Shown here one piece after another: positions 16,404 to 33,799 of a DNA stretch of 62,259 nt. Within the stretch, counting starts at the first letter, position 1. The number at the start of each line of letters is the position of its first letter. Below the pieces are notes generated by a model that searched no databases, had not been told where the DNA came from, and was given only the letters and a program-made list of their open reading frames with translations. The position numbers and the translations under genes are program-made. The DNA is from a virus. Lineage: Duplodnaviria > Caudoviricetes. The DNA lies in the IMG/VR virus record IMGVR_UViG_3300026068_000006, positions 1-62,259 of that record. One strand, given 5' to 3'.

Positions 16404-16466
16404 ATTAAAGTATCGTAAATATTGTTTTTGCCCTATTGACATTATTTACAGACTGGTTTATAATAG
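16404..16466 (+). promoter_or_regulatory. Repeated promoter P copy 1 (palindrome overlapping -35)
   Basis: TTGACA 16436-16441, 17 bp, TATAAT 16459-16464. Confidence 0.9.
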
Positions 16467-16508
16467 AGATAGAAATTGATTGATTGACTAAAAAATAGGA
16501 GAGTAAAA

Positions 16509-16742
16509 ATGACTATAGATCAAGCAACAAAACTGATCAAAGAAAATAAAGAAGCCAGGCAATTGTTCGAAAAGGCTCTGTACTGGGAGCAAGAAGCGGC
16601 CAAGATTGATTACGTCAATAATGAAAACTGCACACAGCAAGACATAGATGATTTTAATACTGTCTGGTCAAACTTCCGGCATTATTTTGATCAGATTGGT
16701 TTTAACGGGGCAATCTACGAAGAGCTGAAAATTCGTCAATAA
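16509..16742 (+). CDS. Hypothetical cassette protein
   Basis: RBS AGGAGAGTAAAA-ATG. Confidence 0.8.
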   Translation: MTIDQATKLIKENKEARQLFEKALYWEQEAAKIDYVNNENCTQQDIDDFNTVWSNFRHYFDQIGFNGAIYEELKIRQ

Positions 16743-16749
16743 CTTATCA

Positions 16750-16778
16750 GTCCTGAGCCAAGACATAAAACTGGCTCA
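16750..16778 (+). ncRNA. H-type pseudoknot candidate
   Basis: GTC/GAC stem and TGAGCCA/TGGCTCA stem. A related sequence lies at 24556-24582. Confidence 0.4.
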
Positions 16779-16800
16779 TTACTCAAACAGGAGAGTAAAA

Positions 16801-16995
16801 ATGAAACAAAATAAATTACAAGAAACCATAGAGGGAGTTTATAAACTGGAAGTTTGGCGGGAAGACGGTAACGTATGGGTATCGTTTGACACGCATACAT
16901 TTCCTCTGGAAATCGCTCTGGATTTTTGGAGCGATTTTGATAGAGTTATTTTTACGATCCAATGTCTGGTCCAGATGTTGGACGAAATTGATTGA
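16801..16995 (+). CDS. Hypothetical cassette protein
   Basis: Same RBS motif as 16509. Confidence 0.75.
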   Translation: MKQNKLQETIEGVYKLEVWREDGNVWVSFDTHTFPLEIALDFWSDFDRVIFTIQCLVQMLDEID

Positions 16996-17023
16996 TTGAC
17001 TTAACGAAACAGGAGAGTGAAAA

Positions 17024-17308
17024 ATGAACGCAAGAATGAGAACAGAAATGACATACGGAGAGAAACTTTTGTTTGAGCTTAGAGAAAAGCAAGCAAAGGA
17101 AACTTTGGCTAAATTCGAGAAAGCAGAAAAGACAGGATTTCTGGCGGTCGGCAATGGCAAGGTTGTTCATCTTGCCACAGCGGACCAGAGTCATACATTG
17201 TGTGGAGCGGAAGGTGTAGGTTCCGCTCAGGTTCGCACGCAAATTTTGAATTTGCGGATTGTAACAGGTCCTGCGACCTGTAAACGTTGTATCGCAAATT
17301 GCAAATAG
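17024..17308 (+). CDS. Hypothetical Zn-binding cassette protein
   Basis: VH...TLCG...ATCKRC. Confidence 0.8.
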   Translation: MNARMRTEMTYGEKLLFELREKQAKETLAKFEKAEKTGFLAVGNGKVVHLATADQSHTLCGAEGVGSAQVRTQILNLRIVTGPATCKRCIANCK

Positions 17309-17362
17309 TTTGGTTCCAAATTTTAGTCGCTCAGAGATGGGCGACTGAGATGTGTGACTAAA
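17309..17362 (+). repeat. 54-nt hairpin repeat A copy 1
   Basis: TTTGGTTCCA-AA-TTTTAGTCGCTCA-GAGA-TGGGCGACTGAGA-TG-TGTGACTAAA. Confidence 0.92.
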
Positions 17363-17384
17363 GATAGTAAACAGGAGAGACTAA

Positions 17385-17632: not shown

Positions 17633-18058
17633 ATGAAAGCGATAAGATGGCTGGGAGCGTTCAGAAAAAGCAGTAAGTCTCTTAACGAGAGTTTGGTATA
17701 CGAACTCTCCCGGCCGGCTACTGATGAAGTAGCCGCCGAGCCACTTGATGACGAGCCGTCAGTAGTAGCCGCCAAAGTAGGGTTATTGATCGAGAAGGGC
17801 GCTATTAAAAAAGTTTTCAATGGTGACTGCTGGTCGGAATATGGAGATGATGGCCGTCTCTACAAGACCAGGAATCCCCGACGGGCCTGGTCAAACCATA
17901 GAGAGGTGTGGGCCTCTCCGCAGTATACGGGTATTGTTCTCAAGGGCAAGGACTTGCCCAAGAGGACAACAAAAACCATTATATGGGTAAGCGAACAGTA
18001 TGGCTTGCCCATATATAAACTGGACAAAAAAGGCGAGATGAAGCAGATCGTCCTTTAG
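17633..18058 (+). CDS. Hypothetical cassette protein
   Basis: 141 aa; the stop lies inside repeat A copy 2. Confidence 0.8.
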   Translation: MKAIRWLGAFRKSSKSLNESLVYELSRPATDEVAAEPLDDEPSVVAAKVGLLIEKGAIKKVFNGDCWSEYGDDGRLYKTRNPRRAWSNHREVWASPQYTGIVLKGKDLPKRTTKTIIWVSEQYGLPIYKLDKKGEMKQIVL

Positions 18059-18094
18059 TCGCTCAGAGATGGGCGATTGGGATGTGAGATTAAA
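18054..18094 (+). repeat. Hairpin repeat A copy 2 (left outer arm missing)
   Basis: TTTAGTCGCTCA-GAGA-TGGGCGATTGGGA-TG-TGAGATTAAA. Confidence 0.9.
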
Positions 18095-18129
18095 CAATTT
18101 ATGGCTCGTAAGGGCCAAAGGAGAACAAT

Positions 18130-18531
18130 ATGGAAAAAATTCATAAAAGTGATTTCCCGGCCGAATTTCGGTTGGATACAGATCATCCCGTGTTTGTCGC
18201 CCGCTTTGACAAATATATCAAGGTAAGCACTATCGCCCTCGTTGTAGCAGAATTACAAACTGGCATAAGACTGGTTTCATTACTTCTCCAAAACGTAAAA
18301 CCAGCCACTCCGGACCAGTTTGACGATCTAGTTAGACGCAGAGTTTGTCTTTTGGAGGCTATAAACAATGTGGATACATCTTGTTACAGGATGTATATAG
18401 ACCAGTTTACCAACGTGGAAGCTGCTCTAAACGCTTGCGAGTTCCCCGATGCGCAAGTGATCAGTTTTGTCAAAACCGGAGGGGGACATGACGAAGACCC
18501 TGTTCGTAGTGTACTTGTCATAAAGGTGTAG
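18130..18531 (+). CDS. Hypothetical cassette protein
   Basis: Bounded by repeat B and repeat A. Confidence 0.85.
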   Translation: MEKIHKSDFPAEFRLDTDHPVFVARFDKYIKVSTIALVVAELQTGIRLVSLLLQNVKPATPDQFDDLVRRRVCLLEAINNVDTSCYRMYIDQFTNVEAALNACEFPDAQVISFVKTGGGHDEDPVRSVLVIKV

Positions 18532-18533: not shown

Positions 18534-18588
18534 TTTAATCACAAATTTTAGTCGCTCATCCCCTGAGCGACTGAGATATGTGGTTAAA
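18534..18588 (+). repeat. Hairpin repeat A copy 3
   Basis: Loop TCCCC; compensatory changes in both stems. Confidence 0.92.
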
Positions 18589-18623
18589 TTATTAGTGCCC
18601 CGTAAGGGCCAAAGGAAAACAAG

Positions 18624-19460
18624 ATGAATGATGAACATTTGAAGATTTTGAAATCAGGCGTCACCACTTGGAACGCCTGGCGGAAAGCGAACCCGGATAT
18701 TATTCCGGATTTGAGTATGGCCAATCTGGAAGGGGCCGATCTGGGCAACGTCAATTTGACTAGAGTCTGTCTGGCCTGGGCCAATCTACGCGGGGCCAAT
18801 CTACGCGGCGCCAAATTGAATGGGGCCATTTTGGTCGGGGCTAATTTGCACGGCGCCAATTTGAGTGAGGCCAATTTGAGCGAGACCAATTTGGAAGGGG
18901 CCAATCTGAGGGAGGTTAATCTGGCCGAGGCCAAACTATATAGGGTCAATCTACGCAGGGCCAATTTAAGTGGGGCCAATTTAAGTGGGGCCAAGCTGAC
19001 CGATGCTGATTTGTGCGAGGCCAATTTGAGCGATACTGATTTGAGATCGGCCTATCTGTATAGGGCCGATCTGGGCGAGGCCGATCTTGGCCGGGCCGAC
19101 TTGACCAGAGCCAACTTGGGTAGGGCCAATTTGGTTGGGGCCAAGCTACACAGGGCCAAGCTACACAGGGCCAATCTGCGCAGGGCCAGCTTGAGCGAGG
19201 CCAATCTGCGCGAGGCCAACTTGAGCGAGGCCGATTTGAGTTGGGCCGATCTGGGCCAGGTTGACTTTAGTGCGGCCAAGTTAAGCGAGGTCAATTTGTA
19301 CAAGGCCGATTTGAGCGGGGCCAACTTGAGTAATGCCGATTTAAGCGGAGCCGATTTGAGTGTAGTCAATTTTGTCGGGACAAACTTAAGCGGGGCTAAT
19401 TTGACCGGCGTAAATTACTCTAATCAGACAATTTGGCCGGACGGGTTTACGTTAGTTTAG
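18624..19460 (+). CDS. Pentapeptide-repeat protein 1
   Basis: A(N/D)Lxx repeats; N-cap GVTTWNAWR; C-cap TIWPDGFTLV. Confidence 0.95.
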   Translation: MNDEHLKILKSGVTTWNAWRKANPDIIPDLSMANLEGADLGNVNLTRVCLAWANLRGANLRGAKLNGAILVGANLHGANLSEANLSETNLEGANLREVNLAEAKLYRVNLRRANLSGANLSGAKLTDADLCEANLSDTDLRSAYLYRADLGEADLGRADLTRANLGRANLVGAKLHRAKLHRANLRRASLSEANLREANLSEADLSWADLGQVDFSAAKLSEVNLYKADLSGANLSNADLSGADLSVVNFVGTNLSGANLTGVNYSNQTIWPDGFTLV

Positions 19461-19502
19461 TGGCAAAATTATTTATGGCCCACAAGGGCCGAAGGGGAAG
19501 AA

Positions 19503-19934
19503 ATGAACGTTGAACATTTGGAAAAATTGGAAGCGGGCATCACTACTTGGAACGCCTGGCGGCTAGAAAATTCGGGCGTTATCCCGGATTTGGCCGGGGC
19601 TGATCTGCGCGAGGTCGATCTGAGCGAGGTCGATCTGGAAGGGACTGATCTGATTGGGGCTAATCTACACAGGGCCAATCTGCGCAGGGCCGATCTGCGC
19701 GGGGCCAATTTGAATAAAGCCAATTTAACCTGGGCCAAATTGGAAGGAGCGGACCTGAGCTGGGCCAACCTTAGCAACGCTGATTTAAGTGGAGCCAATT
19801 TGGACGGTGCCAATTTGTACAGGGCTGATCTGCGCGGGGCCAATCTGCGTAGAGCCGACTTAAACGGGGCCAATTTGACCGGCGTAAATCATTCTACTCG
19901 GACAATTTGGCCAGATGGGTTCACGTTAGTTTAG
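19503..19934 (+). CDS. Pentapeptide-repeat protein 2
   Basis: Same caps as protein 1, fewer repeats. Confidence 0.95.
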   Translation: MNVEHLEKLEAGITTWNAWRLENSGVIPDLAGADLREVDLSEVDLEGTDLIGANLHRANLRRADLRGANLNKANLTWAKLEGADLSWANLSNADLSGANLDGANLYRADLRGANLRRADLNGANLTGVNHSTRTIWPDGFTLV

Positions 19935-19980
19935 CCTTAAAATTATTTATGGCCCATTAGGGTCAAAGGAATAAAGAATA

Positions 19981-20301
19981 ATGAAAAAAATAGATAGGGC
20001 GCGCAAAGAGACTGAAAGTCTGGCCCGCTTTTTGGAAAAGCGAGAATGGATTAACGCAGACAAATTGCCTCTTGTCTTCGAGGAGGCAGCCGATACAATA
20101 GCGAAAATTGAATTTTTCGCTATTACTAATACGATAGCAAAACTGGAGAAATATTTAGCGGAGGCCCGTGGCTGGGCCGAAAATAAACAGACTGGCATGA
20201 ATGGTCAACCACTCAGGATAAATAAAAAAGAACAGGAAAAAGCCAGAGCAGAAGCGAATAGGATTGAAAGAACTATCGCTAAACTCAGGGAGCTTATATG
20301 A
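19981..20301 (+). CDS. Hypothetical helical protein
   Basis: Starts behind repeat B. Confidence 0.8.
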   Translation: MKKIDRARKETESLARFLEKREWINADKLPLVFEEAADTIAKIEFFAITNTIAKLEKYLAEARGWAENKQTGMNGQPLRINKKEQEKARAEANRIERTIAKLRELI

Positions 20302-20525
20302 TATGGCAGCACAACCGTGAAAGAGGGCGTGGGCGTATACATCTAGTCACATCGGACGGCCGGTTGTTTTGTACTAATCGACAAATTGCCCAGCCTCTTT
20401 TGTGGTCTAAAATAGATCATGTCAATAGCATTTTTTTTAGAAATTGGGCTTGTAGAAAATGCTTGTCCAAGTATTTAATAGGTCCACAAGGGCCGAAGGA
20501 GCAAAATGAACACCGAACATTATAA
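20298..20525 (+). CDS. Hypothetical Zn-binding protein
   Basis: IH...LFC...ACRKC, same pattern as 17024; ATGA overlap. Confidence 0.65.
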   Translation: MIWQHNRERGRGRIHLVTSDGRLFCTNRQIAQPLLWSKIDHVNSIFFRNWACRKCLSKYLIGPQGPKEQNEHRTL

Positions 20526-21465
20526 CGTTTTAAGGTCTGGCATAGGAGTTTGGAACGCCTGGCGACGGGCCAATCCACATATAGCCCCGGATTTGAGCGA
20601 GGCGGATTTGAGCGAGGTTGATCTGACCAGGGCTGATTTGCGTTGGGCCAAGTTGCACGGGGCCAATCTGAGCGAGGCCAATCTAGCTGACGCCAATCTG
20701 AGCGACACCGATCTTAGCTTCGCCAATCTTGATTTGGCCAAGCTACACAGGGCCAATCTGCGTAAGGCCGATTTGTTCAGGGCCAATCTACGCAGAGCCG
20801 ATTTGAGCGAGGCCAATTTGTTCAGAGCCAACTTACACGGGGCCGATCTGCATGAAGCCATTTTACACAGGGCCATTTTGCACGAATCCAACCTTAGTGA
20901 GGCAGATTTGACCGGAGTTGATTTAAGCGAGGCTGGTATCAGGGCCAACTTAAAAAGGGCCGATTTGTACAAAGCTGATTTAAGCGAGGCTGACCTGAGT
21001 GGGGCTATTCTTATCGAGACCGATATAATTGAGACCAATTTGTACAAGGCAAATTTGAGTAAAGCGGAATTGTGTGGGGCTGATTTACGCAGAGCCGGAT
21101 TGTCTGGCGCCGACTTGCACAAAGCCAACTTGTTTCAAGTCAACCTGACCGAGGCTGATTTGGGCGGGGCCAATCTAAGTGATGTTGACTTGGGCGGGGC
21201 CAACTTGAGTAATGCCAATCTAAACAGGGCCAATTTAAGCAGGGCCAATCTAACCGGGACGAACTTAAGCGGGGTTAAAGGTATCGTTGTCTCTCTTGAT
21301 CAGCACGGGCATACACTGGTCAGTTGGCAGCATGGCGAGGCTGTAGGTTTTACGGCCGGCTGTCACTCTTTTGCTACCGCCAGAGAAGCGATAATTTACT
21401 GGGAAGTGGCCGACTGTTCGTATTTAGAATTCATAGATTTCCACCTTAAATGTTGGCTAGATTAA
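20506..21465 (+). CDS. Pentapeptide-repeat protein 3 with an alternative C-terminal domain (DUF5758-like)
   Basis: Repeats followed by GHTLVSWQHGEAVGFTAGCHSF. Confidence 0.93.
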   Translation: MNTEHYNVLRSGIGVWNAWRRANPHIAPDLSEADLSEVDLTRADLRWAKLHGANLSEANLADANLSDTDLSFANLDLAKLHRANLRKADLFRANLRRADLSEANLFRANLHGADLHEAILHRAILHESNLSEADLTGVDLSEAGIRANLKRADLYKADLSEADLSGAILIETDIIETNLYKANLSKAELCGADLRRAGLSGADLHKANLFQVNLTEADLGGANLSDVDLGGANLSNANLNRANLSRANLTGTNLSGVKGIVVSLDQHGHTLVSWQHGEAVGFTAGCHSFATAREAIIYWEVADCSYLEFIDFHLKCWLD

Positions 21466-21523
21466 AATATCGTAAATAATGTCCTTGCCCTATTGACATT
21501 ATTTACGATATGGTATATAATAG
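21461..21523 (+). promoter_or_regulatory. Repeated promoter P copy 2
   Basis: Perfect 17-bp inverted repeat 21467-21483 / 21495-21511; TTGACA 21493, TATAAT 21516. Confidence 0.92.
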
Positions 21524-21558
21524 AACTAGAAGTTAATTATTATTAAACAGGTCACAAA

Positions 21559-21936: not shown

Positions 21937-22815
21937 GTGATCAAAAAGGGGGACATTCGCATAATAGCTCCCCGATTGGCCAGTCAATCAGTGAACTGTA
22001 TCGTGACCAGCCCCCCATATTGGGGATTGCGCGATTATGGACATGCTGACCAAATTGGGCTTGAGCCAACGCCGGAAGCATACGTGCAAACAATGGTCGG
22101 CGTCTTTGGGGAATTGCATCGCGTACTGAGAGATGACGGCACGCTGTGGCTAAATCTGGGAGATACGTTTGTCGCCAAAAACCTTGTTGGCATCCCCTGG
22201 CGGGTGGCCCTGGCCTTGCAAGCGGATGGGTGGTATCTGCGGAGCGATATTATATGGAGTAAGCCCAATTGTATGCCGGAGAGCGTAACAGACCGCCCTA
22301 CAAAAGCTCACGAATATTTATTTCTATTGAGCAAGACAGAATCGTATTACTACGACCAGGATGCGATCAGAGAGCCTAATTCAATGAATCGGCCCCGCAA
22401 AAATCGAAACAATTCGACTACCTTTAAGCGCAACGGCTCAAAGCGCGAACAAACAATACCGGGGCAAGGTTACGGCACCCATCGGCCGGATAGAAGCGAT
22501 ACGGACTACAATCCACTTGGCCGAAATAAACGGTCCGTATGGGAAGTCAGTCTGAGAGCCTATGGCGGTGCGCATTTCGCAGTCTTTCCGCCTGATTTAA
22601 TCGAGCCGTGTATCCTGGCCGGTTGTCCTCCTGGGGGGATCGTGCTTGATCCATTTTTTGGCAGTGGCACAGTAGGACAGGTGGCCATAAAAACCGGTCG
22701 CAATTGGCTTGGAATTGAAATAAACTCGGATTATATCAAGCTGGCAGAGGAACGGATAAACGGTACCCAATTGCCTTTAATAGTACCCGGTTCTGAGGCG
22801 AACAAGCTGTGCTAA
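21937..22815 (+). CDS. DNA N4-C/N6-A methyltransferase (beta class)
   Basis: VTSPPYW, IIWSKPNCMP, HFAVFP, LDPFFGSGT. Confidence 0.93.
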   Translation: MIKKGDIRIIAPRLASQSVNCIVTSPPYWGLRDYGHADQIGLEPTPEAYVQTMVGVFGELHRVLRDDGTLWLNLGDTFVAKNLVGIPWRVALALQADGWYLRSDIIWSKPNCMPESVTDRPTKAHEYLFLLSKTESYYYDQDAIREPNSMNRPRKNRNNSTTFKRNGSKREQTIPGQGYGTHRPDRSDTDYNPLGRNKRSVWEVSLRAYGGAHFAVFPPDLIEPCILAGCPPGGIVLDPFFGSGTVGQVAIKTGRNWLGIEINSDYIKLAEERINGTQLPLIVPGSEANKLC

Positions 22816-22831
22816 ATCTGTAGAACGCCAG

Positions 22832-22892
22832 ATTAAAATATCGTAAATATTGTCTTTTCCCTATTGACAATATTTACGAACTGGTATATAAT
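22832..22892 (+). promoter_or_regulatory. Repeated promoter P copy 3
   Basis: 14-bp inverted repeat 22841-22854 / 22866-22879; TTGACA 22864, TATAAT 22887. Confidence 0.92.
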
Positions 22893-22944
22893 ATATTTAT
22901 AAATAGATTGATTAACTGGCTCTAATGGGCCAAAGGAGAACAAG

Positions 22945-23178
22945 ATGGATAACATAAGAAAAGAACAAGAAAAATTTATGGTTCGGCTGGAAAAAATCCT
23001 CACCCGAATGGGAGAGGATGACTTATTAGATTACCGGGCGAACGAGGCCGTTTGGATCGCCCAGTATGGGCCAGATGATCATCTGGCGATCCGGGCGAAC
23101 GAGGCCGAAACCCGAGGCACGGGCCACTTCCATCATCTAAAATGGCGGAAGGACCGAGAAGAGCTACCGAAGGTTTAG
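22945..23178 (+). CDS. Hypothetical cassette protein (starts MDNIR)
   Basis: Repeat B start; stop supplied by repeat A. Confidence 0.8.
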   Translation: MDNIRKEQEKFMVRLEKILTRMGEDDLLDYRANEAVWIAQYGPDDHLAIRANEAETRGTGHFHHLKWRKDREELPKV

Positions 23179-23227
23179 CCCCAAGTTTTAGCCGCCCAGT
23201 CTTGGGCGGCTAAGATGTGAGACTAAA
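23174..23227 (+). repeat. Hairpin repeat A copy 4
   Basis: Loop GTCT. Confidence 0.93.
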
Positions 23228-23264
23228 TTATTAGCTGGCCCGTGATGGGCCAAAGGAGAACAAG

Positions 23265-23516
23265 ATGGATAACATAAGATTAACAATGGTTTACAATCGG
23301 CAGATAAGCGATATGCCGGGATCGACCGGCACCATCCGTATTGTTTGCGGGCACTGTATTGACCAAGATCCAATTGCGACTCTTGGGTTCGATGTTGAAT
23401 GTGAGCTTTTAGATGGTAGACCTTGGCGAGAAGTTGTTGCCAAGAAGTTGGGGGAAGACCCCAGGTGGCGGTATCGGCCCCATACAAACTGTCGGCACAC
23501 CAAAGGGTTCGTTTAG
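23265..23516 (+). CDS. Hypothetical cassette protein (starts MDNIR)
   Basis: Repeat B start; stop supplied by repeat A. Confidence 0.8.
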   Translation: MDNIRLTMVYNRQISDMPGSTGTIRIVCGHCIDQDPIATLGFDVECELLDGRPWREVVAKKLGEDPRWRYRPHTNCRHTKGFV

Positions 23517-23565
23517 CCCCAAGTTTTAGCCGCCCAAGACTGGGCGGCTAAGATGTGAGACTAAA
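23512..23565 (+). repeat. Hairpin repeat A copy 5
   Basis: Identical to copy 4 except the loop, AGAC. Confidence 0.93.
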
Positions 23566-23601
23566 CAATTATCAGGCCCAAGCGGGCAGAAGGAGAATAA
23601 A

Positions 23602-23796
23602 ATGAAAGTCGAAGAATGTATCAAGAATTTAATTGCCGACACAAGCGCCGGGGGGAAAGGGTACGCCAATGCGTGCCAATTGTGGAGGGGTTTTGGTGAT
23701 ATGGGCCAGCGACCCTACGGCTGGTGGCTAAAGCCGTTTGGAGAAACAGCCCGTTTTATTGGGCGAAGCTGGAAAGAGATCAAGGCCGATTGGTAA
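23602..23796 (+). CDS. Hypothetical cassette protein
   Basis: Repeat B start. Confidence 0.8.
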   Translation: MKVEECIKNLIADTSAGGKGYANACQLWRGFGDMGQRPYGWWLKPFGETARFIGRSWKEIKADW

Positions 23797-23801
23797 TTTT
23801 G

Positions 23802-23866
23802 TGAGGGGGTTAATCTCCCCTCCTGCCCGGTAGCCTCAGAGCCAGGCAGAAGCGGGGATTACAACC
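23802..23866 (+). ncRNA. Structured intergenic RNA candidate with a possible pseudoknot
   Basis: Bulged stem GGTT-AATC-CCC-CTGCC / GGCAG-GGGG-ATT-AACC. Loop CCTCA is complementary to upstream TGAGG. Confidence 0.4.
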
Positions 23867-23904
23867 GCTAATTAACAGGTCCATAAGGGCCGAAGGAAAT
23901 AAAA

Positions 23905-24210
23905 ATGGCAACGCAAAAACTAACTCGAAGGTCACGTAAATTTGGATGGGGATATTCATTTACTCCTATCCGAAACACCTGTGACATTACCCGGCCATCG
24001 AAGCCGGATTATGAAGGGACGGTTAGACAGGTATTAAATTGCATCTCGTCTGACCGTACATGGAACGCCAATCGGTCAGCGTTCTCAAGTGCGCAATTTT
24101 TCTTGGACGGAAAGCCTATTTATTTTATAAGCGAATTTGATCTTGACGATCTTTTGGACGGAAGGACTGACGAGATCGAAGTGGCCTATATAAAGGCCGA
24201 AGGAGAATAA
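23905..24210 (+). CDS. Hypothetical cassette protein
   Basis: Repeat B start. Confidence 0.8.
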   Translation: MATQKLTRRSRKFGWGYSFTPIRNTCDITRPSKPDYEGTVRQVLNCISSDRTWNANRSAFSSAQFFLDGKPIYFISEFDLDDLLDGRTDEIEVAYIKAEGE

Positions 24211-24211
24211 G

Positions 24212-24487
24212 ATGAACAAATTTGTAAAAATGAGTAGAGAAGAACGCCGTTCCACTCGTTTTAATGGGGACGAAATCCTGATCGGAGAGGTCGATGGTAA
24301 CATTGTTACTGTCGGTCCAGACGCTGACGGGACAGGGACGGCGGTGTTTATTCAGATCGGATCATTGCCGGCCGTGAATTGTTTTGGGAACGAAACTGGT
24401 CGCTCCCTCTTGGAAGAATGGAGAGCCGGAAATCTGTGGGTAGAACAAGAGGGCTACCATAGAGGTAGTACGTTTGCGGGCATATAA
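24212..24487 (+). CDS. Hypothetical cassette protein
   Basis: Repeat B-like start. Confidence 0.8.
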   Translation: MNKFVKMSREERRSTRFNGDEILIGEVDGNIVTVGPDADGTGTAVFIQIGSLPAVNCFGNETGRSLLEEWRAGNLWVEQEGYHRGSTFAGI

Positions 24488-24581: not shown

Positions 24582-24637
24582 TCTCTAAACCACTGATACC
24601 CGGTCCCAAGTCCGGGATGTGAGAAGTGCGAGGGGAT
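24582..24637 (+). ncRNA. Twister ribozyme-like motif (type P1, imperfect)
   Basis: UAA..CACU..CCGGUCCCAAGUCCGG..AGUG.GAGGG follows the order of twister core elements. P1 and the T2 pseudoknot are weak. Confidence 0.45.
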
Positions 24638-24675
24638 AAATTTAACTGGCCTGTGATGGGCCGAAGGAGAATGAA

Positions 24676-25837: not shown

Positions 25838-26682
25838 ATTATGAAATTTTATTAAAATCAGGCGCCGAAAATTGGAACGCCTGGCGGAAGAAAAATTATC
25901 AGATTATTCCTGACCTACGTGGGGCCAATTTGGTTGGGGCCAATCTGGAAGGGACTTATCTGATTGGGGTCAATCTGAGCGAGGCCAACTTGATTGAAGC
26001 TAATTTGTGTAGGTCTTATCTGGCTGAAGTGAATCTAAAAAAAGCCAGCTTGAAAAGAGCCGATTTGGCCGGAGCTTATTTGTATGGGGCCGATCTGAGC
26101 GAGGCCGACCTACGTGGGGCCAATTTGGTCGGGGCCGATCTGTATGGGGCCAACTTGAGTAAAACCGATCTGATTAGGGCCAATTTGCATGAGGCCGATC
26201 TGCATGGGTCCAATTTGCATGAGGCCAACCTGTACAAAGCCGATTTGGGCGAGGCTGATCTAACCGGGTCTAATCTAACAAATGCCAATCTATACGGGGC
26301 CAATCTGGAAAGGGCCAATTTGCATCTGACCAATTTGCCCATGGCCAATCTGATCGGGACCAATCTGGCCATGGCTGATCTGAGTAGTGCCAATCTGACC
26401 GCGGCCAAGCTGCACGAGGCCGATCTGTCCGGGGCTAACTTGAGCGGGGCCAAGATGGTCAGGGTTAAAGGCATTTTTTATACCTCCTTTGATTTACGGG
26501 GATGGACTTTGGTCAGTTGGCGACACAATGAAGTGGTGGGTTTTACGGCCGGTTGCTATTCTTTTACCACCCCGGATGAGGCAAGAGCCCATTGGGGAGC
26601 GCCCGGATATCCAGACAAGAATCGTGGCCAAATGTATCTGGAATGCATCGAATTCCACCTGGCTCGTTGGCAAGAGATTTAA
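25834..26682 (+). CDS. Pentapeptide-repeat protein 4 with the alternative C-terminal domain
   Basis: ATGA overlap; C-terminal GWTLVSWRHNEVVGFTAGCYSF is shared with protein 3. Confidence 0.93.
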   Translation: MNYEILLKSGAENWNAWRKKNYQIIPDLRGANLVGANLEGTYLIGVNLSEANLIEANLCRSYLAEVNLKKASLKRADLAGAYLYGADLSEADLRGANLVGADLYGANLSKTDLIRANLHEADLHGSNLHEANLYKADLGEADLTGSNLTNANLYGANLERANLHLTNLPMANLIGTNLAMADLSSANLTAAKLHEADLSGANLSGAKMVRVKGIFYTSFDLRGWTLVSWRHNEVVGFTAGCYSFTTPDEARAHWGAPGYPDKNRGQMYLECIEFHLARWQEI

Positions 26683-26732
26683 TCCCGGCTTTCAGTCGCT
26701 CATCCTCTGGGCGATTGAGATGTGAGATTAAA
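26678..26732 (+). repeat. Hairpin repeat A copy 7
   Basis: Loop TCCTC; supplies the TAA stop. Confidence 0.92.
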
Positions 26733-26743
26733 TAGAACAAAAC

Positions 26744-26806
26744 ATTAAAATATCGTAAATAATTGTCTTATCCTATTGACAATATTTACGAACTGGTATA
26801 CAATAG
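26744..26806 (+). promoter_or_regulatory. Repeated promoter P copy 4
   Basis: TTGACA 26776-26781, 17 bp, TACAAT 26799-26804. Confidence 0.88.
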
Positions 26807-26845
26807 ACTTATAAATAGATTATATTAGATTGAGGAGAGTAAAAG

Positions 26846-27283: not shown

Positions 27284-27345
27284 TCTCGAAACCGCCTTCG
27301 GGCGGTCAGCCGGAATTGGCCCACTGGCTCTGATGAGAGAGGCCA
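27284..27345 (+). ncRNA. Hammerhead ribozyme, type II
   Basis: TCTC-GAAA-CCGCC(TTCG)GGCGG-TC^-AGCCGG(loop)CTGGCT-CTGATGA-GAGA. Loop TGGCC pairs with the 3' GGCCA. Confidence 0.95.
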
Positions 27346-27380
27346 TATAAACAAGGTCCGTAAGGGCCGAAGGAGATAGA

Positions 27381-27521
27381 ATGAATAATTTTGATATGGA
27401 AATCTGGCTTGATGACTCGGATTTGGAAGAGCAATTGCGTCAACTTCAAGAGATCGAAGATGGCGCAGAGGATGTAGAGCATCCGGATACTCAATATTCG
27501 GATTATCCTTGGGCAGTTTAA
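27381..27521 (+). CDS. Very acidic small protein (46 aa), not in the ORF track
   Basis: Repeat B start; stop in repeat A; MNNFDMEIWLDDSDLEEQ... Confidence 0.75.
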   Translation: MNNFDMEIWLDDSDLEEQLRQLQEIEDGAEDVEHPDTQYSDYPWAV

Positions 27522-27570
27522 TTCCAGCTTTTAGTCGCTCAGGGATGGGCGACTGAGATGTGTGATTAAA
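27517..27570 (+). repeat. Hairpin repeat A copy 8
   Basis: Loop GGGA. Confidence 0.92.
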
Positions 27571-27604
27571 TTATTAAGGTCCGCAAGGGCCGAAGGAGAA
27601 CAAG

Positions 27605-27781
27605 ATGAAATATCAAATCGAAGTATCGAAAGTCCTTAAAGGACGAAAGACCAATACAGTCCGGCTCAAGCCAAGGCTGTCCATTGAAGATGTGGCTTAT
27701 TGGCAGGAGCGAATCGCCTGGTTGCTTGACAAATCAGACGTGGTAACTTGCCGCGTCGCCAAGAATGAGGTGGTTAAATGA
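27605..27781 (+). CDS. Small hypothetical protein (58 aa)
   Basis: Repeat B start. Confidence 0.7.
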   Translation: MKYQIEVSKVLKGRKTNTVRLKPRLSIEDVAYWQERIAWLLDKSDVVTCRVAKNEVVK

Positions 27782-30599: not shown

Positions 30600-30619
30600 C
30601 TATTAAAAGGATTAAACTG

Positions 30620-30820
30620 ATGAAACCAAGTAGAATTGACAAGGATTTTTACGGCTGTCCCAAGTGTGGCTTTCCGCTCAATGTCCAAAATGACAATGAG
30701 CTGGAGTACACGGGCGGCTTAACCTGCGCTTGTGGAGTTTTTGTATCGTTACCTGACATCCCGGTTCCACCGAAGTCAAAATACAGAAAGTTTTACGAAA
30801 CCAAATCTAAGGAGAGTTAA
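30620..30820 (+). CDS. Zn-ribbon protein
   Basis: CPKCG...CACG. Confidence 0.65.
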   Translation: MKPSRIDKDFYGCPKCGFPLNVQNDNELEYTGGLTCACGVFVSLPDIPVPPKSKYRKFYETKSKES

Positions 30821-30822
30821 CC

Positions 30823-31554
30823 GTGACAGAACAACAGCCGCAGTCTAAAAACCCAATACCGAAACCAGTCTATCAGGCCATTGCTGCGGCTGTTGTTGCT
30901 GGTGGTAGTTCGTTTGTTTTTGGCGTCCCTATCGAGTACGTTCCCCGTGTCGCTGTGGCCGGGATCGTCTACAGCGTCTTCCAATCTTACTCGGACATCC
31001 GCTATCAAGTATCGCCCAGAGTCAGACGGCCACGAGGCCGGCAAATCGCTGTCAACACCGTCAACGGTAGCCGCAAAATCGATATGGAGTATAGTGTTTC
31101 TCAAGGTGGTTATATAGTCCGGGAAACCTACGCTCAAGCCATTAAACGCTTTGTTTTCGGTAAGCCCCAGGCTGACAAGCGTCAACCTGAAATTAAAGTC
31201 AATAGACCAGAGGCACTTGATGATTTCATCTTTCGCTCTCACTATCAAGGCCAGGTGGTCGAATTGGCCGAGACACACGTTAGACTATTCTTGCAATCTG
31301 CCTGGCGCAACCGAGCGAACGGTAAGGGGCTAAGTCAAAGACGGTGGGTTAGGGAGCGATCACAGCGGCCGGCATGGTACCAAGAGTTGTCGCCTGTCTG
31401 GTACTACGGCATGAGTATGTTACTGTGGGATGCACAGAAGGCTTTGAAACGCCAACTGGTGATCGAAACGGGCTATCAGTGGTACGCCCTTAACGTTGAG
31501 CCAAGGCAGGCGATGGGATTGTTAAAGTGGTATGAGTCAATCAAGCGGCAATGA
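30823..31554 (+). CDS. Membrane-associated hypothetical protein
   Basis: RBS AAGGAG; two N-terminal hydrophobic segments. Confidence 0.7.
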
Positions 31555-32360
31555 AAAACGATAGTGATACGCTACAGATATATTTTGCAGACATGAGGCA
31601 GATAGGAGGCGCTCTTTTATCGCTTGATGAGGAAATCCAACTGGCCAAACTAATAGAGGTGGGCGGTCTGGAAGGTGATCGGGCCAGAGCCAGTCTTATA
31701 GAAGCGAATCTACGTCTTGTGGTTAGTATCGCCAATAAATATTGGACGCCCGACATTCCCTTTGGTGACTTGATACAGGAGGGGAATATCGGGTTAATGA
31801 TAGCTGTTGACAAATACGATTGGCGGCGGGGTGTATATTTTAGCACCTATGCCACCTGGTGGATTAGACAGGCTATCAGACAGGCTATTGCGATGCGATT
31901 CATGATACGCATCCCAACTCATATATGGGACAACACGATCAAGATAAAGCGGGCGATAGATTGTTATACCGGCGAATTACCATCAGTGATTGCAGCAAAG
32001 GCGGGTCTTAGTGAGGCCGAAGTTATTAAAGGGTTGGAATGTCTGAGACTGATGAGTGTATCATCTATAGATAATAACAATCTACATGCGCTTTTATCTG
32101 ATGAGAGCCAAGAGGTTTACATTGAGGCGAATGAATTGAACAAGTTTATTTTGGACATCTTGGAGACTTTGGGCGAAAGGGAGGCCAAGATAGTAGAAAT
32201 GCGTTATGGACTTAGGGACGGAATCCCCCATACCCTGGGAGAAATTGGAAAGGTGATGAGCCTGACTCTGGAACGTGTCAGACAAATTGAGAAAAAGGCG
32301 TTAGAAGAACTTCGACTTGACGTAAAATTAAAAAACTATTTAGGAGACAAAAATGACTAA
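31551..32360 (+). CDS. RNA polymerase sigma-70 family factor (RpoD/RpoS-like)
   Basis: [42 protein letters not shown]...[11 protein letters not shown]. Confidence 0.95.
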
Positions 32361-32547
32361 TAAGATCGTAGTGTACGTACCGAAAGAATTGGCAAACCGT
32401 ACTACCCAAGAGAAGGCGGTTCAGGCGCTTGAACTGCTTTGCGGGAAGCAGATATCTGACGATATTTATGAAACGGGTAGAGTAGACTGGTTTATCAAAA
32501 CAGAATTATATCGTCTTGGTTTAAGACGAAAGGGCGGAAACGAATGA
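32353..32547 (+). CDS. Small hypothetical protein
   Basis: RBS AGGAG; coupled to neighbours. Confidence 0.65.
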
Positions 32548-33089
32548 GTGCTTTTGTGAGAGTTGCAGACAAGTTACGCGATAGTAAATTTATTATCCCG
32601 ATTACCCTGGCAGTTATGTTGGGGATAATTATCAGTGCTTTTGCCTTTTACGAGGATTATCAATCTTCATTACATGGTTATGAGATGTTGCCTACTCGGA
32701 AATCAGGCGAGGAAGTGATACAGATGATTGCCTTGCTCCCTCAAGTGGGCCAGATTATCTTCTTCTACCTGTTCGGGAATAGCGTGGAGGTGTTGCCAAA
32801 TGGCAGACGGCGCATCAATTACATCTACTTTATTGTCGCTTCTTTTTTGCTCTTTTTTGATTTGGGGACTGACATGTATTACAAAGCTTCGGGCGCTTTT
32901 TGGCCTGTCTGGATTATTGCTTTCGTAGAGTCTATCACCGTCTTTACCATTGGCAGCGAGATGCTCCTAACCGCCTCACTGGGTCTTTTCTTTGAGTTGG
33001 CCCCGGAAGCGATCAAGCAACTGGGCCAGTTTTTTGGAGCGTTTTTGGGTGAGGATGAGGACGCTCCGACCATTGCGTCACGGAGGTAA
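32544..33089 (+). CDS. Multi-pass membrane protein
   Basis: About four hydrophobic segments. Confidence 0.75.
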   Translation: MSAFVRVADKLRDSKFIIPITLAVMLGIIISAFAFYEDYQSSLHGYEMLPTRKSGEEVIQMIALLPQVGQIIFFYLFGNSVEVLPNGRRRINYIYFIVASFLLFFDLGTDMYYKASGAFWPVWIIAFVESITVFTIGSEMLLTASLGLFFELAPEAIKQLGQFFGAFLGEDEDAPTIASRR

Positions 33090-33090
33090 A

Positions 33091-33750
33091 ATGAACACCG
33101 AACATTTGGAAACCTTAAAAGCGGGCGTCGCTACTTGGAACAATTGGCGGATGAAACACCGAGAAGTTATCCCGGACTTGGCCGGGGCCAATCTGGTTGG
33201 GGCCAATCTGGACGGGGCCGACTTGTGTGCGGCCGACTTGTGTGCGGCCGACTTGCGCGGGGCTAACCTGACCAGGGCCAAGCTGGTTGGGGCCAAGCTG
33301 CACGAGGCCGATCTGTCCGGGGCCGACTTGAGCGTGGCCAATCTACACAGGGCCTATCTGCGCGGGGCTAATTTGAGTGGGGCTAACCTGAACCAAGCCG
33401 ATCTGCGTGGGGCCAATCTGGTCAGGGCCAATTTGGCCCAAGCCAATCTGATCAGGGCCAAGTTTGGTGGGGCCAACCTGAACGGGGCCAAGCTGCGCCA
33501 GGCCGATTTGAGCGGGACCGACTTGACCAAGGCCGATTTACATCAAGCCGACCTAAGCAGCGCTAACCTGCGCGGGGCCAATCTAATTGCGGCCGGCTTG
33601 ACCGGTGCTAACCTGCACGAGGCCAAGCTGAATGGGGCCAATTTGAGTGACGCCAATTTGGACTGGGCCAAGCTGGACGGGGCCGACTTGACCGGGGCCA
33701 GTCACGATGACCAAACAATTTGGCCGGACGGGTTCACGCCCGCCGTTTAA
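33091..33750 (+). CDS. Pentapeptide-repeat protein 5
   Basis: RBS GGAGG; MNTEHLETLKAGVATWNNWR; C-cap TIWPDGFTPAV. Confidence 0.95.
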   Translation: MNTEHLETLKAGVATWNNWRMKHREVIPDLAGANLVGANLDGADLCAADLCAADLRGANLTRAKLVGAKLHEADLSGADLSVANLHRAYLRGANLSGANLNQADLRGANLVRANLAQANLIRAKFGGANLNGAKLRQADLSGTDLTKADLHQADLSSANLRGANLIAAGLTGANLHEAKLNGANLSDANLDWAKLDGADLTGASHDDQTIWPDGFTPAV

Positions 33751-33799
33751 TCTCAAGTTTCAGCCGTTCAGGGATGGGCGGCTGAGATGTGTGACGGGG
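33746..33799 (+). repeat. Hairpin repeat A copy 9
   Basis: Loop GGGA; right end degenerate; supplies the TAA stop. Confidence 0.88.

What the first reader, a model, noticed from the sequence alone, without database searches (positions are those of the whole stretch)
16404..33799. Cassette-grammar accessory region: genes bracketed by a start hairpin+RBS and an interchangeable 3' RNA element
Seen: about 20 unrelated small genes follow the layout [repeat B hairpin + SD]-ATG...stop-[3' element]. The 3' slot holds the 54-nt repeat A (9 copies), a hammerhead (27284), a twister-like motif with pseudoknots (24488-24637), or other folds (16750, 23802). Established: T7 early mRNA is cut into units at RNase III hairpins, and repeated promoter/stem-loop elements shuffle modules in T4-type phages. 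Inference: this is a modular expression and shuffling platform in which polycistronic early RNA is cut into hairpin-capped monocistrons and the repeats act as recombination handles. I recognised no recombinase in the genome.
Basis: partly seen in the sequence, partly recalled or inferred. Interest (0 to 1): 0.92.

Follow-up and report, generated by a model that had tools for sequence, protein, structure and literature searches.

The report
Ribozyme-and-hairpin punctuated phage early operons
In an uncultured wetland phage, many small early genes are separated by reusable RNA modules (a long hairpin repeat, a hammerhead ribozyme or a twister-like motif after the stop codon, then a short hairpin plus ribosome-binding site), which most likely cut and stabilise long transcripts gene by gene.

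Summary
The window is one complete 62-kb virus record. Repeat A is a 55-nt irregular hairpin with exactly 9 copies, all on the + strand, and each starts within -5 to +7 nt of a stop codon. Repeat B has 14 copies: an AU-rich linker, a 5-bp GC hairpin, GAAGGAG and then ATG. A type II hammerhead at 27284-27347 scores above Rfam's gathering score. The twister-like motif at 24582-24638 scores below it.

I also found four copies of a near-consensus sigma-70 promoter repeat, with canonical terminators only at the two ends of the region (16341 and about 34540).

The "about 20 genes" count is too high. Of 25 genes between 16.5 and 27.8 kb, 14 have B, 12 have a structured 3' element, and 7-8 have both.

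My best reading, at confidence 0.5, is RNA-level punctuation of polycistronic early transcripts. Ribozymes and nuclease-targeted or protective hairpins would be interchangeable, with B acting as a 5' cap hairpin and RBS presenter.

I could not test the recombination-handle idea. No relatives could be fetched, and four metagenome runs showed only the identical genome. No recombinase, RNase III or RNA ligase family was detected in 94 translations. No RNA data exist.

The parts
16341..16375 (+). Canonical intrinsic terminator (14-bp stem plus T-run) closing the upstream unit, just before promoter repeat 1
   Evidence: sequence
16380..16489 (+). Promoter repeat copy 1: TTGACA-17-TATAAT at 16436-16464, flanked by an inverted repeat around the -35 element
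   Evidence: (family D7)
21437..21546 (+). Promoter repeat copy 2 (12 of 12 match to consensus, 21493-21521)
22808..22917 (+). Promoter repeat copy 3 (12 of 12, 22864-22892), followed directly by a B unit
26720..26829 (+). Promoter repeat copy 4 (11 of 12, 26776-26804), directly after A7
17308..17362 (+). Repeat A copy 1 (23-bp irregular hairpin; stop TAG ends at 17308)
18039..18094 (+). Repeat A copy 2 (the 5' arm lies in coding sequence and has diverged; stop TAG lies inside the upper stem)
18534..18589 (+). Repeat A copy 3
23173..23227 (+). Repeat A copy 4 (stop TAG is the last three bases of GTTTAG, the 5' strand of the basal stem)
23511..23565 (+). Repeat A copy 5
25362..25416 (+). Repeat A copy 6
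26678..26733 (+). Repeat A copy 7 (followed by promoter repeat 4)
27516..27570 (+). Repeat A copy 8
33745..33812 (+). Repeat A copy 9, with a 13-nt G-rich insertion in its 3' arm. It is the only copy beyond 27.6 kb
   Evidence: (46.8 bits, not in the seed)
18092..18132 (+). Repeat B copy 1 (AU-rich linker, 5-bp GC hairpin, AAGGAG, ATG)
18586..18626 (+). Repeat B copy 2
19466..19505 (+). Repeat B copy 3
19942..19983 (+). Repeat B copy 4 (diverged: GGGTC, AAGGAA)
20470..20508 (+). Repeat B copy 5 (inside the 3' end of the preceding ORF)
22907..22947 (+). Repeat B copy 6 (in the leader of promoter 3)
23227..23267 (+). Repeat B copy 7
23564..23604 (+). Repeat B copy 8
23867..23907 (+). Repeat B copy 9
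24172..24214 (+). Repeat B copy 10 (inside the preceding ORF's 3' end)
24638..24678 (+). Repeat B copy 11 (after the twister-like element)
24907..24947 (+). Repeat B copy 12 (inside coding sequence; weak hairpin)
27344..27383 (+). Repeat B copy 13 (directly after the hammerhead)
27567..27607 (+). Repeat B copy 14
27284..27347 (+). Type II hammerhead ribozyme, starting at the base after stop TAA 27281-27283. Predicted cut after the GUC triplet, between 27307 and 27308
   Evidence: 38.3 bits, gathering 37; alignment; the cut site is inferred from the alignment
24582..24638 (+). Twister-like core. It has UAA, a 4-bp P2 candidate, a P4 hairpin whose loop matches the family consensus, and a GAGGGG tract. 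It has no P1 and deviates at the L2/L4 pseudoknot pair
   Evidence: all below gathering score
24488..24581 (+). GC-rich hairpins between stop TAA (24485-24487) and the twister-like core
   Evidence: fold; z = -0.68, not significant
23797..23868 (+). Three-hairpin fold in the same slot, between a stop codon and B
   Evidence: z = -2.05; no Rfam match
16752..16776 (+). Simple 7-bp hairpin after stop 16742
   Evidence: sequence
34538..34580 (+). Canonical terminator (12-bp stem, T7 run) at the end of the region. The scan missed it because its loop is 9 nt
   Evidence: sequence

Best explanation
The region from 16.3 to 34.6 kb is the phage's early/accessory gene block. It is read from four nearly identical sigma-70-type promoters as long polycistronic RNAs, which end only at the canonical terminator near 34,540.

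Between many of the small genes sits a two-part RNA 'punctuation' module.

Part 1 starts at the stop codon and is a structured element. It defines and protects the 3' end of the upstream cistron.
- Usually this is repeat A, a 22-24 bp imperfect hairpin. That is the size of a double-strand-specific (RNase III-type) substrate, or of a barrier to 3' exonucleases.
- Once it is a hammerhead ribozyme, which cuts itself and leaves a hairpin on either side of the cut.
- Once it is a twister-like motif.
- Twice it is some other fold.

Part 2 is repeat B. It has an AU-rich single-stranded linker (a plausible RNase E-type entry site), then a 5-bp GC hairpin that would cap the new 5' end and hold the adjacent GAAGGAG Shine-Dalgarno in the open, then ATG 7-8 nt further on.

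The result would be gene-sized, hairpin-capped mRNAs whose stability and translation do not depend on their neighbours. The hammerhead-plus-B arrangement has the same architecture as the synthetic RiboJ insulator.

Because these modules are repeated DNA, they also offer homology for exchanging genes. That is a likely side effect, not a demonstrated function.

Shown: the presence, number, placement and strand-specific structure of the elements, and the hammerhead's family membership. Inferred: the transcription units, every cleavage event, the nuclease involved, and the stabilising and insulating effect.
For: - Repeat A: exactly 9 copies, all on the + strand, all starting -5 to +7 nt from a stop codon.
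- Repeat A structure: 96% of cells pair, against at most 40.5% in slid controls. Compensatory changes occur at 2 pairs (7 cells), the terminal loop is variable, and there are many G.U pairs.
- Strand specificity: the + strand RNA fold is -19 to -31 kcal/mol. In 7 of 9 copies it is 8-16 kcal/mol better than the reverse complement. This points to an RNA-level function on the + strand.
- None of the 9 A copies is flagged as a terminator (no T-run), whereas the region's two ends carry textbook terminators.
- Hammerhead_II scores above the gathering score with an intact core. It starts at the first base after a stop codon and ends where a B unit begins.
- The twister-like motif sits in the same slot.
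- Repeat B: 14 copies with a conserved AU-rich leader, hairpin and SD.
- Intergenic gaps have a median of 75.5 nt here, against -1.5 nt in 27.7-34.4 kb and 1 nt in the rest of the genome.
- There are four 11-12 of 12 consensus promoters.
- Literature, passages read: bacterial and phage ribozymes cluster together and near phage genes, and have been proposed to process polycistronic transcripts (PMC6765202). RiboJ is a ribozyme plus a hairpin upstream of the RBS, and the remaining hairpin is thought to stabilise the mRNA and expose the RBS (PMC6206723).
- RNase III cutting of T7 early mRNA at intercistronic hairpins is textbook knowledge. I recalled it and did not check it in a call.
Against: - There is no RNA evidence at all. 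No listed run is on record as RNA.
- No relatives were available, so structure conservation rests on paralogous copies within one genome, which are related by descent. On the measure 'pairs with a change on both sides', 357 of 500 shuffles reach the observed 2.
- B's helix shows no significant covariation (61-95 of 500 shuffles reach the observed values).
- Predicted SD accessibility of B genes is only weakly higher than that of other genes (median 0.72, n=14, against 0.55, n=55; one-sided Mann-Whitney p = 0.054).
- The twister-like motif fails every Rfam threshold and lacks P1. Its region folds no better than shuffled sequence.
- 11 of 25 genes have no 3' element and 11 of 25 have no B, so the 'grammar' is not obligatory.
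- No phage RNase III, RNA ligase or other RNA-processing family was found in 94 translations. Any nuclease would therefore have to come from an unknown host.
Confidence: 0.5

Rival explanations
1. The repeats are kept mainly as DNA-level recombination handles, like the PeSL promoter/stem-loop cassettes of T4-type phages. Homologous exchange between A, B or promoter repeats would move, delete or swap the genes between them, and any RNA structure would be secondary.
For: - A 35-nt block, 100% identical (22925-22959 and 23245-23279), spans a B unit and the first five codons of two otherwise unrelated genes, with diverged flanks (D11; one search shows no protein similarity between them).
- The A4-B and A5-B units are 88% identical over 69 nt (D9).
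- The genes between the repeats are unrelated to each other apart from five pentapeptide paralogues.
- PeSL-mediated indels are documented in T4-like phages (PMC4122927, abstract read; PMC2839356, search listing only).
Against: - Four runs holding this phage gave only identical contigs. There were no indels, and the only two joints are cross-matches between pentapeptide genes.
- The G.U-rich, strand-specific structure and the fixed register with stop and start codons are not needed for DNA homology.
- No recombinase family was found in 94 translations, although host or unrecognised phage recombination could do the job.
- No related genome could be obtained to look at breakpoints.
Confidence: 0.15
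2. Repeat A is a transcriptional punctuation signal: a factor-dependent or U-tract-less terminator, attenuator or pause site that grades expression along each operon. It is not an RNA-processing site.
For: - A is a stable hairpin placed directly after stop codons.
- A7 sits just upstream of promoter repeat 4, where a terminator would be expected.
Against: - None of the 9 A copies is followed by a T-run, while this genome does use canonical hairpin-plus-T-run terminators at 16341 and about 34540.
- Five A copies are followed within 34-37 nt by the start of the next gene, with no promoter in between. Efficient termination there would silence those genes.
Confidence: 0.1
3. Repeat A is a selfish or neutral miniature palindromic repeat (REP-, Correia- or MITE-like) that has spread in the phage's permissive intergenic spacers and has no benefit for the phage.
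For: - It has terminal inverted repeats (GTTTAR...YTAAAY).
- There are multiple similar copies within one genome.
- Exact-pattern scans of three public collections found no copy elsewhere.
Against: - All 9 copies lie in one orientation and in one register with stop codons.
- Compensatory changes keep the stem.
- No transposase was found.
- In 5 of 9 copies the element supplies the stop codon of the upstream gene.
Confidence: 0.1
4. Repeat A is itself catalytic (a new self-cleaving motif, perhaps derived from a twister-type RNA), or it is the recognition hairpin of a dedicated endoribonuclease, for example a Cas6-like enzyme of the host.
For: - It occupies the same slot as a hammerhead and a twister-like motif. 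Ribozyme classes have been discovered before precisely by their proximity to other ribozymes (PMC6765202).
- A and the twister-like element share the motifs CCCAAGT and GATGTGAGA and the same 3' flank into B.
- The 3' internal-loop strand GATGTG-GA is nearly invariant.
Against: - A folds as an almost continuous rod, with no junction or conserved loop available for a pseudoknot, and its terminal loop varies freely.
- No Rfam family matches it, even at E <= 10 in a 751-nt search.
- Sequence conservation among copies within one genome is weak evidence.
Confidence: 0.07

Closest known systems
RNase III processing sites between the early genes of phage T7 (textbook knowledge, recalled; not checked in a call)
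   Same: - About 50-60 nt irregular hairpins between cistrons of a long early transcript.
- No terminator function.
- After cutting, a hairpin is left at the 3' end of the upstream message.
- Repeat A has the right size (22-24 bp) and position.
   Different: - A's copies are near-identical repeats, not individually diverged sites.
- A overlaps the stop codon.
- The host and its RNase III are unknown, and cleavage is untested.
- In this phage the same slot is also filled by ribozymes.
Clusters of hammerhead, twister and related self-cleaving ribozymes near phage genes (review PMC6765202, passages read)
   Same: - A type II hammerhead and a twister-like motif lie 2.7 kb apart in a phage gene block.
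- Both are intergenic and in sense orientation, consistent with the proposed processing of polycistronic RNA.
   Different: - Here the ribozymes are embedded in a repeated module system (A and B) that puts them in a defined syntactic position.
- The twister-like motif does not reach family thresholds.
RiboJ and related synthetic ribozyme or Csy4 insulators (PMC6206723, passages read)
   Same: The order is a self-cleaving ribozyme, then a short hairpin, then RBS and gene. After cleavage the hairpin caps the 5' end and is thought to expose the RBS. The hammerhead plus B13 plus gene 27381 has this layout.
   Different: This one is natural rather than engineered. The ribozyme is a type II hammerhead, the B hairpin is only 5 bp, and the effect on expression is untested (accessibility trend p = 0.054).
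PeSL promoter-early/stem-loop cassettes of T4-type phages (PMC4122927 abstract; PMC2839356 search listing only)
   Same: Short repeated regulatory cassettes, combining a promoter with a stem-loop, flank small variable genes in a plastic region. The four 110-nt promoter repeats here carry an inverted repeat around the -35 element.
   Different: PeSLs were defined by indel breakpoints between close relatives, and no relatives are available here. A and B are not promoter elements.
Integron gene cassettes with attC sites
   Same: Promoterless small ORFs, all in one orientation, each followed by an imperfect palindromic element that begins at the stop codon.
   Different: - A's ends do not fit the attC core or inverse-core consensus in either orientation (inspection).
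- The copies are alike in sequence.
- No tyrosine recombinase was found in 94 translations.
- The G.U pairs make the structure specific to the + strand RNA.
REP/BIME, ERIC and Correia-type intergenic repeats of bacteria (recalled)
   Same: Repeated palindromic units lie just after stop codons. They stabilise upstream mRNA or are cut by RNase III or RNase E.
   Different: These are families of bacterial chromosomes and are found in both orientations. A lies in a phage, in one orientation only, and is paired with a dedicated downstream RBS module.

Membership tests
Hammerhead ribozyme, type II (Rfam RF02276) | Covariance-model score at or above the curated gathering score | tested here: met
   38.3 bits against 37; E = 3.2e-4 for the whole window against 4227 families. 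The margin is narrow.
Hammerhead ribozyme, type II (Rfam RF02276) | Conserved catalytic core (CUGAUGA, GAAA) and an NUH cleavage triplet, with stems I and III closed by loops | tested here: met
   The alignment shows CUGAUGA, CGAAAC and GUC before stem I, with both stems closed.
Hammerhead ribozyme, type II (Rfam RF02276) | Site-specific self-cleavage | not testable with these tools
   Needs in vitro transcription. Predicted cut between 27307 and 27308.
Twister ribozyme (Rfam RF03160, RF03154, RF02684) | Covariance-model score at or above the gathering score | tested here: not met
   - P1 type: 18.9 against 67.2.
- P3 type: 10.3 against 39.9.
- P5 type: 21.3-23.9 against 37.6.
- Weak hits at E <= 10 also occur in 8-10 of 14 control genomes.
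Twister ribozyme (Rfam RF03160, RF03154, RF02684) | P4 hairpin with the conserved terminal loop L4 | tested here: met
   24600-24615 matches the model consensus at 15 of 16 positions, at posterior probability '*'.
Twister ribozyme (Rfam RF03160, RF03154, RF02684) | Double pseudoknot (L4 with L1 and with L2) formed by highly conserved nucleotides | tested here: inconclusive
   - A CCC/GGG(G) pairing between L4 and the GAGGGG tract at 24631-24636 is possible.
- The second pseudoknot is weakened. The model's conserved GC after P2 reads GA here, and the L4 GC reads GU (alignment; inspection).
- The definition comes from PMC6154101.
Twister ribozyme (Rfam RF03160, RF03154, RF02684) | Stem P1 flanking the U-A cleavage site | tested here: not met
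   The sequence 5' of UAA (24587-24589) has no complement 3' of the G tract. PMC6154101 states that P1 is dispensable for cleavage, so this does not exclude activity.
RNase III-type intercistronic processing hairpin (T7 early sites) | About two helical turns (20 bp or more) of imperfect double-stranded RNA | tested here: met
   8 of 9 copies fold into 22-24 bp. A2 gives 15 bp.
RNase III-type intercistronic processing hairpin (T7 early sites) | Cleavage by RNase III in vivo or in vitro | not testable with these tools
   No RNA run is listed and the host is unknown.
Intrinsic (Rho-independent) terminator | GC-rich hairpin followed directly by a U-tract | tested here: not met
   None of the 9 A copies and none of the 14 B copies appears among the 23 terminator-like sites. 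The sequence after A's upper stem is GAGATGTG.
Integron attC site | Inverse-core and core consensus at the two ends, and a neighbouring integron integrase | tested here: not met
   - The ends GTTTAR and YTAAAY fail the consensus in both orientations (inspection; the consensus is recalled).
- No integrase or recombinase family was found in 94 translations.
PeSL (promoter-early stem-loop) cassettes | Indel or replacement breakpoints between related genomes fall at the repeats | not testable with these tools
   No relative could be fetched. Identical contigs only in four runs.

The most novel reading that the evidence does not exclude
In this phage, self-cleaving ribozymes and repeat A are functionally interchangeable 'cut here' signals of one modular mRNA-punctuation system, and B is the matching 5' cap and RBS part. 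That would give hammerhead and twister-type ribozymes of phages a concrete biological job: drop-in, host-independent replacements for nuclease sites. It would also make repeat A a new RNA-processing motif. In the boldest version (about 0.07 on its own), A is itself a new self-cleaving class related to twister, with which it shares two short motifs and its flanks.
Probability: 0.3. Interest if true: 0.8.

Novelty: new variant of a known kind. Interest (0 to 1): 0.6.

Why it matters
What hammerhead, twister and related ribozymes do in bacteria and phages is still largely open (review PMC6765202). Here a bona fide hammerhead and a twister-like motif occupy the same defined position as nine copies of a plain hairpin repeat: after a stop codon and before a conserved hairpin plus RBS.

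That equivalence turns 'ribozymes process phage operons' into a testable statement. One can swap A, the hammerhead and the twister-like element in one construct and compare RNA ends, stability and translation.

The hammerhead-plus-hairpin-plus-RBS layout is also a natural counterpart of a widely used synthetic insulator. A and B are two new repeat motifs with no Rfam family.

Tried and rejected
SEARCHES FOR RELATIVES (all without a usable result)
- Exact IUPAC patterns of repeat A in viral, metagenome and genome contigs found nothing.
- Single-protein scans with the Alp/ParM-like protein, TerL, P0004 and P0038 found nothing.
- Alignment scans returned only relatives at 51% identity or less in short segments, none with this grammar.
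- GenBank phages: TerL matches at 29% or less, Alp has no match, and region DNA matches only pentapeptide genes and one coding patch.
- The B pattern gave 7 viral contigs with one match each, with no repeated use and no ribozymes.
- The promoter motif gave 9 contigs, all chance matches by their context.
So the 95 Alp homologues, many on 40-70 kb contigs and two named as Planctomycetota MAGs, could not be examined in context.

SEQUENCING RUNS
- No RNA holder is listed among the 18 wetland-metagenome runs.
- Laying four of those 18 runs gave identical low-depth contigs only. The two joints (19238>33246 and 19625>33468) are cross-matches between pentapeptide repeats.

RFAM
- Repeat A, the fold at 23797-23868 and the region 17350-17650 match no family at E <= 10.

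PHAGE-ENCODED ENZYMES
- No RNase, RNA ligase or recombinase was found.
- The only 'Rnase E' label (phrog_645, E = 3.6e-14) belongs to 38702-39241, directly upstream of the large terminase. It is more likely a small terminase subunit.

OTHER
- SD accessibility of B genes against other genes was not significant.
- I thought of a CRISPR-repeat-mimic reading of A only from memory of repeat shapes.

Full report
WHAT THE WINDOW IS

The 62,259 bases are one whole IMG/VR virus record, rated 100% complete by CheckV and classed as linear. It is a tailed phage. It has a large terminase, a tail tape-measure-like protein, helicases, two N6/N4 DNA methylases, a sigma-70-type sigma factor at 31551-32360 and an actin-like ParM/Alp protein at 27936-28895.

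It has no close relative in GenBank phages. TerL matches at 29% identity or less, Alp has no match, and megablast of the region finds nothing. The sequence is held by 18 wetland-metagenome DNA runs. Two homologues of its Alp protein are named as coming from Planctomycetota MAGs, which is the only hint about the host.

THE OBSERVATION

Repeat A is real.
- The repeat finder and an alignment give nine copies.
- A covariance model built from eight of them, run without filters over the whole genome, recovers those eight at 58-78 bits. It also recovers the ninth, which was left out of the seed, at 46.8 bits. Nothing else on the + strand scores above 14 bits.
- The consensus fold is one long imperfect hairpin. 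It has a basal stem GTTTAR/YTAAAY, a few pairs across small internal loops, and a 13-14 bp upper stem with a variable loop.
- On the alignment 96% of 198 cells pair, against 34-41% when the partners are slid by 1-3 columns. Two pairs show compensatory changes, in 7 cells.
- The shuffle control is exceeded for percentage paired, for doubly changed cells and for covariation score (0 of 500 each). It is not exceeded for the number of pairs with double changes (357 of 500). Because the copies are paralogues in one genome, this is moderate evidence and not strong.
- The stems are rich in G.U pairs. The + strand RNA folds at -19 to -31 kcal/mol, and in 7 of 9 copies this is 8-16 kcal/mol better than the reverse complement. 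The two all-Watson-Crick copies, A4 and A5, are the exceptions.
- Every copy begins -5 to +7 nt from the last base of a stop codon. In five copies the stop codon is the TAG or TAA inside the basal stem's 5' strand.

Repeat B is also real, with 14 copies. Each has an AU-rich stretch of about 10 nt, a 5-bp GGYCC/GGGCC hairpin with a 4-5 nt loop, GAAGGAG 1-2 nt later, and ATG 7-8 nt after that. The helix is 94% paired, but with so little variation that covariation is not significant.

The hammerhead is confirmed. Rfam Hammerhead_II at 27284-27347 scores 38.3 bits against a gathering score of 37, with the full model and an intact core. It starts at the base after stop codon 27281-27283, and its last bases run into B13.

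The twister-like element is weaker.
- The P5-type model gives 21.3-23.9 bits (gathering 37.6).
- The P1-type model gives 18.9 bits at 24582-24638 (gathering 67.2; E = 0.007 for this genome).
- The P3-type model gives 10.3 bits.
- What matches well is the P4 hairpin and its loop (15 of 16 consensus positions) and the UAA.
- By inspection there is also a 4-bp P2 candidate (24591-24594 with 24625-24628) and a GAGGGG tract that could pair with the loop's CCC.
- There is no P1. One of the two positions the model keeps as GC after P2, and its partner in the loop, are both changed.
- A review states that P1 is dispensable for cleavage and that the double pseudoknot is essential (PMC6154101, passages read).
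- I therefore treat this as a possible twister variant, about even odds of activity, and not as a member of the family.
- The 200-nt region around it folds no better than shuffled sequence (z = -0.68).

The layout count is overstated. From my reading of the sequence and the ORF list, 25 genes lie between 16,509 and 27,781.
- 14 have B.
- 4 use a second repeated RBS cassette (AAACAGGAGAG...ATG, families D17 and D19).
- 12 have a structured element right after the stop: 8 A, 1 hammerhead, 1 twister-like and 2 other folds.
- Only 7 have both B and a 3' element (8 if a promoter repeat counts as the 3' element).

Beyond 27.8 kb the genes overlap or abut (median gap -1.5 nt against 75.5 nt before), and only A9 is found there. 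Apart from five pentapeptide-repeat paralogues, the gene products are unrelated to each other at E <= 1e-3.

WHAT ELSE IS THERE

There are four copies of a 110-nt repeat that carries a TTGACA-17-TATAAT promoter matching the consensus at 11-12 of 12 positions. They lie at 16436, 21493, 22864 and 26776, with an inverted repeat around the -35 element.

Textbook hairpin-plus-T-run terminators occur only just before the first promoter (16341-16375) and after the last gene (about 34538-34580). None of the 9 A copies and none of the 14 B copies looks like such a terminator. So the block is most simply read as four overlapping, long, same-strand transcription units. This is inferred from sequence only.

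MECHANISM

The hammerhead fixes the logic of the slot. A cut after the GUC triplet, between 27307 and 27308, would leave the upstream message ending in the stem III hairpin. The downstream message would start with a 5'-OH, stem I, a short AU-rich stretch, the B hairpin and the SD. This is the architecture of the synthetic RiboJ insulator: a ribozyme, then a hairpin, then the RBS, where the remaining hairpin is thought to stabilise the mRNA and expose the RBS (PMC6206723, passages read).

Repeat A fills the same slot eight times in the same region. It offers 22-24 bp of imperfect double-stranded RNA in 8 of 9 copies. That is the size class of the RNase III sites that cut T7 early RNA between genes (textbook knowledge, recalled). 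It is followed by the AU-rich single-stranded linker of B, a plausible RNase E-type entry site between two hairpins.

In either case the products would be hairpin-capped single-gene messages. I cannot tell RNase III cutting inside A from linker cutting with A acting as a 3' barrier, and neither is shown. A weak trend towards more accessible SD sequences in B genes is not significant (median 0.72 against 0.55; p = 0.054).

No RNase III, RNA ligase, Cas6 or recombinase family appears in 94 translated ORFs. The single PHROG labelled 'Rnase E' belongs to the ORF just upstream of the large terminase and is probably the small terminase subunit.

RELATION BETWEEN A AND THE TWISTER-LIKE ELEMENT

Both contain CCCAAGT and GATGTGAGA and run into B through a similar TAAAT-rich flank. 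A9 carries a G-rich insertion at the place where the twister-like element has its G tract. This could mean common descent, or exchange at shared flanks.

It also keeps open, at low probability, the idea that A is more than a passive hairpin. Against that, A is a nearly continuous rod with a freely varying loop and matches no Rfam family.

THE RECOMBINATION IDEA

PeSL cassettes of T4-type phages are a documented precedent (PMC4122927, abstract). Within this genome the best hint is a 35-nt perfectly identical block that covers a B unit and the first five codons of two unrelated genes (D11). The A4-B and A5-B units are also 88% identical (D9).

The decisive comparison could not be made. The four runs laid on 16,000-35,000 held only the identical sequence with no indel, and their two joints are pentapeptide cross-matches. 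The idea is therefore untested rather than refuted. I regard recombination at the repeats as a likely by-product and not as their reason for being.

COMPARISON AND NOVELTY

The pieces each have precedents: intercistronic RNase III hairpins in T7, ribozyme clusters near phage genes, 5' stabilising hairpins, and promoter/stem-loop cassettes. What is unusual is their combination into one repeated module system, in which a confirmed ribozyme, a ribozyme-like motif and a plain hairpin repeat are positionally equivalent.

A and B are new motifs. They have no Rfam match and no exact-pattern match in three collections. I file the finding as a new variant of a known kind.

Its value is that it makes the proposed mRNA-processing role of phage ribozymes, which the review calls largely elusive (PMC6765202, passages read), testable by simple swaps. 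The limits are plain: one uncultured genome, no RNA data, no relatives and an unknown host.

I did not use the papers' supplementary files. None of the claims above depends on them.

Noticed in passing
window 17369-17632: After A1 comes a copy of the second RBS cassette with a two-codon mini-ORF (ATG GTT TGA at 17386-17394). This is followed by about 230 nt with no ORF. The stretch folds far better than shuffled sequence (283 nt, -77.1 kcal/mol, z = -3.64, 0 of 200 shuffles) and matches no Rfam family at E <= 10. It is a candidate structured non-coding RNA of unknown kind.
   Followed up: partly
window 29330-29420: An iteron-like array of GTCACA(G/A)ACA units lies in the 142-nt gap after the Alp/ParM-like operon (27936-29309). 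It may be the centromere site of that segregation system. One run shows loose ends at 29400 with a different repeat arrangement (table 7).
   Followed up: no
window 34457-34504: A 48-bp segment with 14-bp palindromic arms lies between the last gene and the terminator. In three runs it occurs in contigs whose sequence differs on both sides (table 7: loose ends at 34457 and 34504 in X12, X15 and X16). It could be a shared operator, an att-like site or an origin-like site in another replicon.
   Followed up: no
window 22925-22959 and 23245-23279: A 35-nt block, 100% identical, covers the 3' half of the B hairpin, the SD, ATG and four more codons of two genes that are otherwise unrelated (D11). 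It looks like a recombination or gene-conversion joint.
   Followed up: partly
window 18624-19460, 19503-19934, 20506-21465, 25834-26682, 33091-33750: Five paralogous pentapeptide-repeat proteins (41-54% identity) share an N-terminal segment. Two of them have an extra shared C-terminal domain. Pentapeptide proteins also occur in Caulobacter phages. They may be DNA-mimic anti-defence proteins, but that is my inference only.
   Followed up: partly
window 10854-11393, 13009-13716, 36533-37357, 21937-22815, 37379-38689, 35935-36543: This is a gene set suggesting modified DNA. It comprises a dCTP-deaminase-like protein, DUF5131, a TET-associated / HMC-type glycosyltransferase, two N6/N4 methylases and a ParB-like nuclease domain. 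The assignment of the Pfam hits to particular ORFs is inferred from the PHROG hits.
   Followed up: partly
window 16493, 16785, 17007, 17369 and 26833: A second repeated ribosome-binding cassette (AAACAGGAGAG, then 6-8 nt, then ATG) serves the first operon and the gene after promoter 4. So at least two families of start modules are in use (D17 and D19).
   Followed up: no
window 23797-23868: The three-hairpin fold in the A slot has loops of hairpins 1 and 3 that are complementary over 5 nt (TAATC and GATTA), so a kissing-loop tertiary contact is possible (inspection). It is a single copy, so covariation cannot be tested.
   Followed up: no
window 38702-39241: This ORF matches phrog_645, which is labelled 'Rnase E' (E = 3.6e-14). 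It sits directly upstream of the large terminase, so it is more likely the small terminase subunit and the label is probably misleading.
   Followed up: partly
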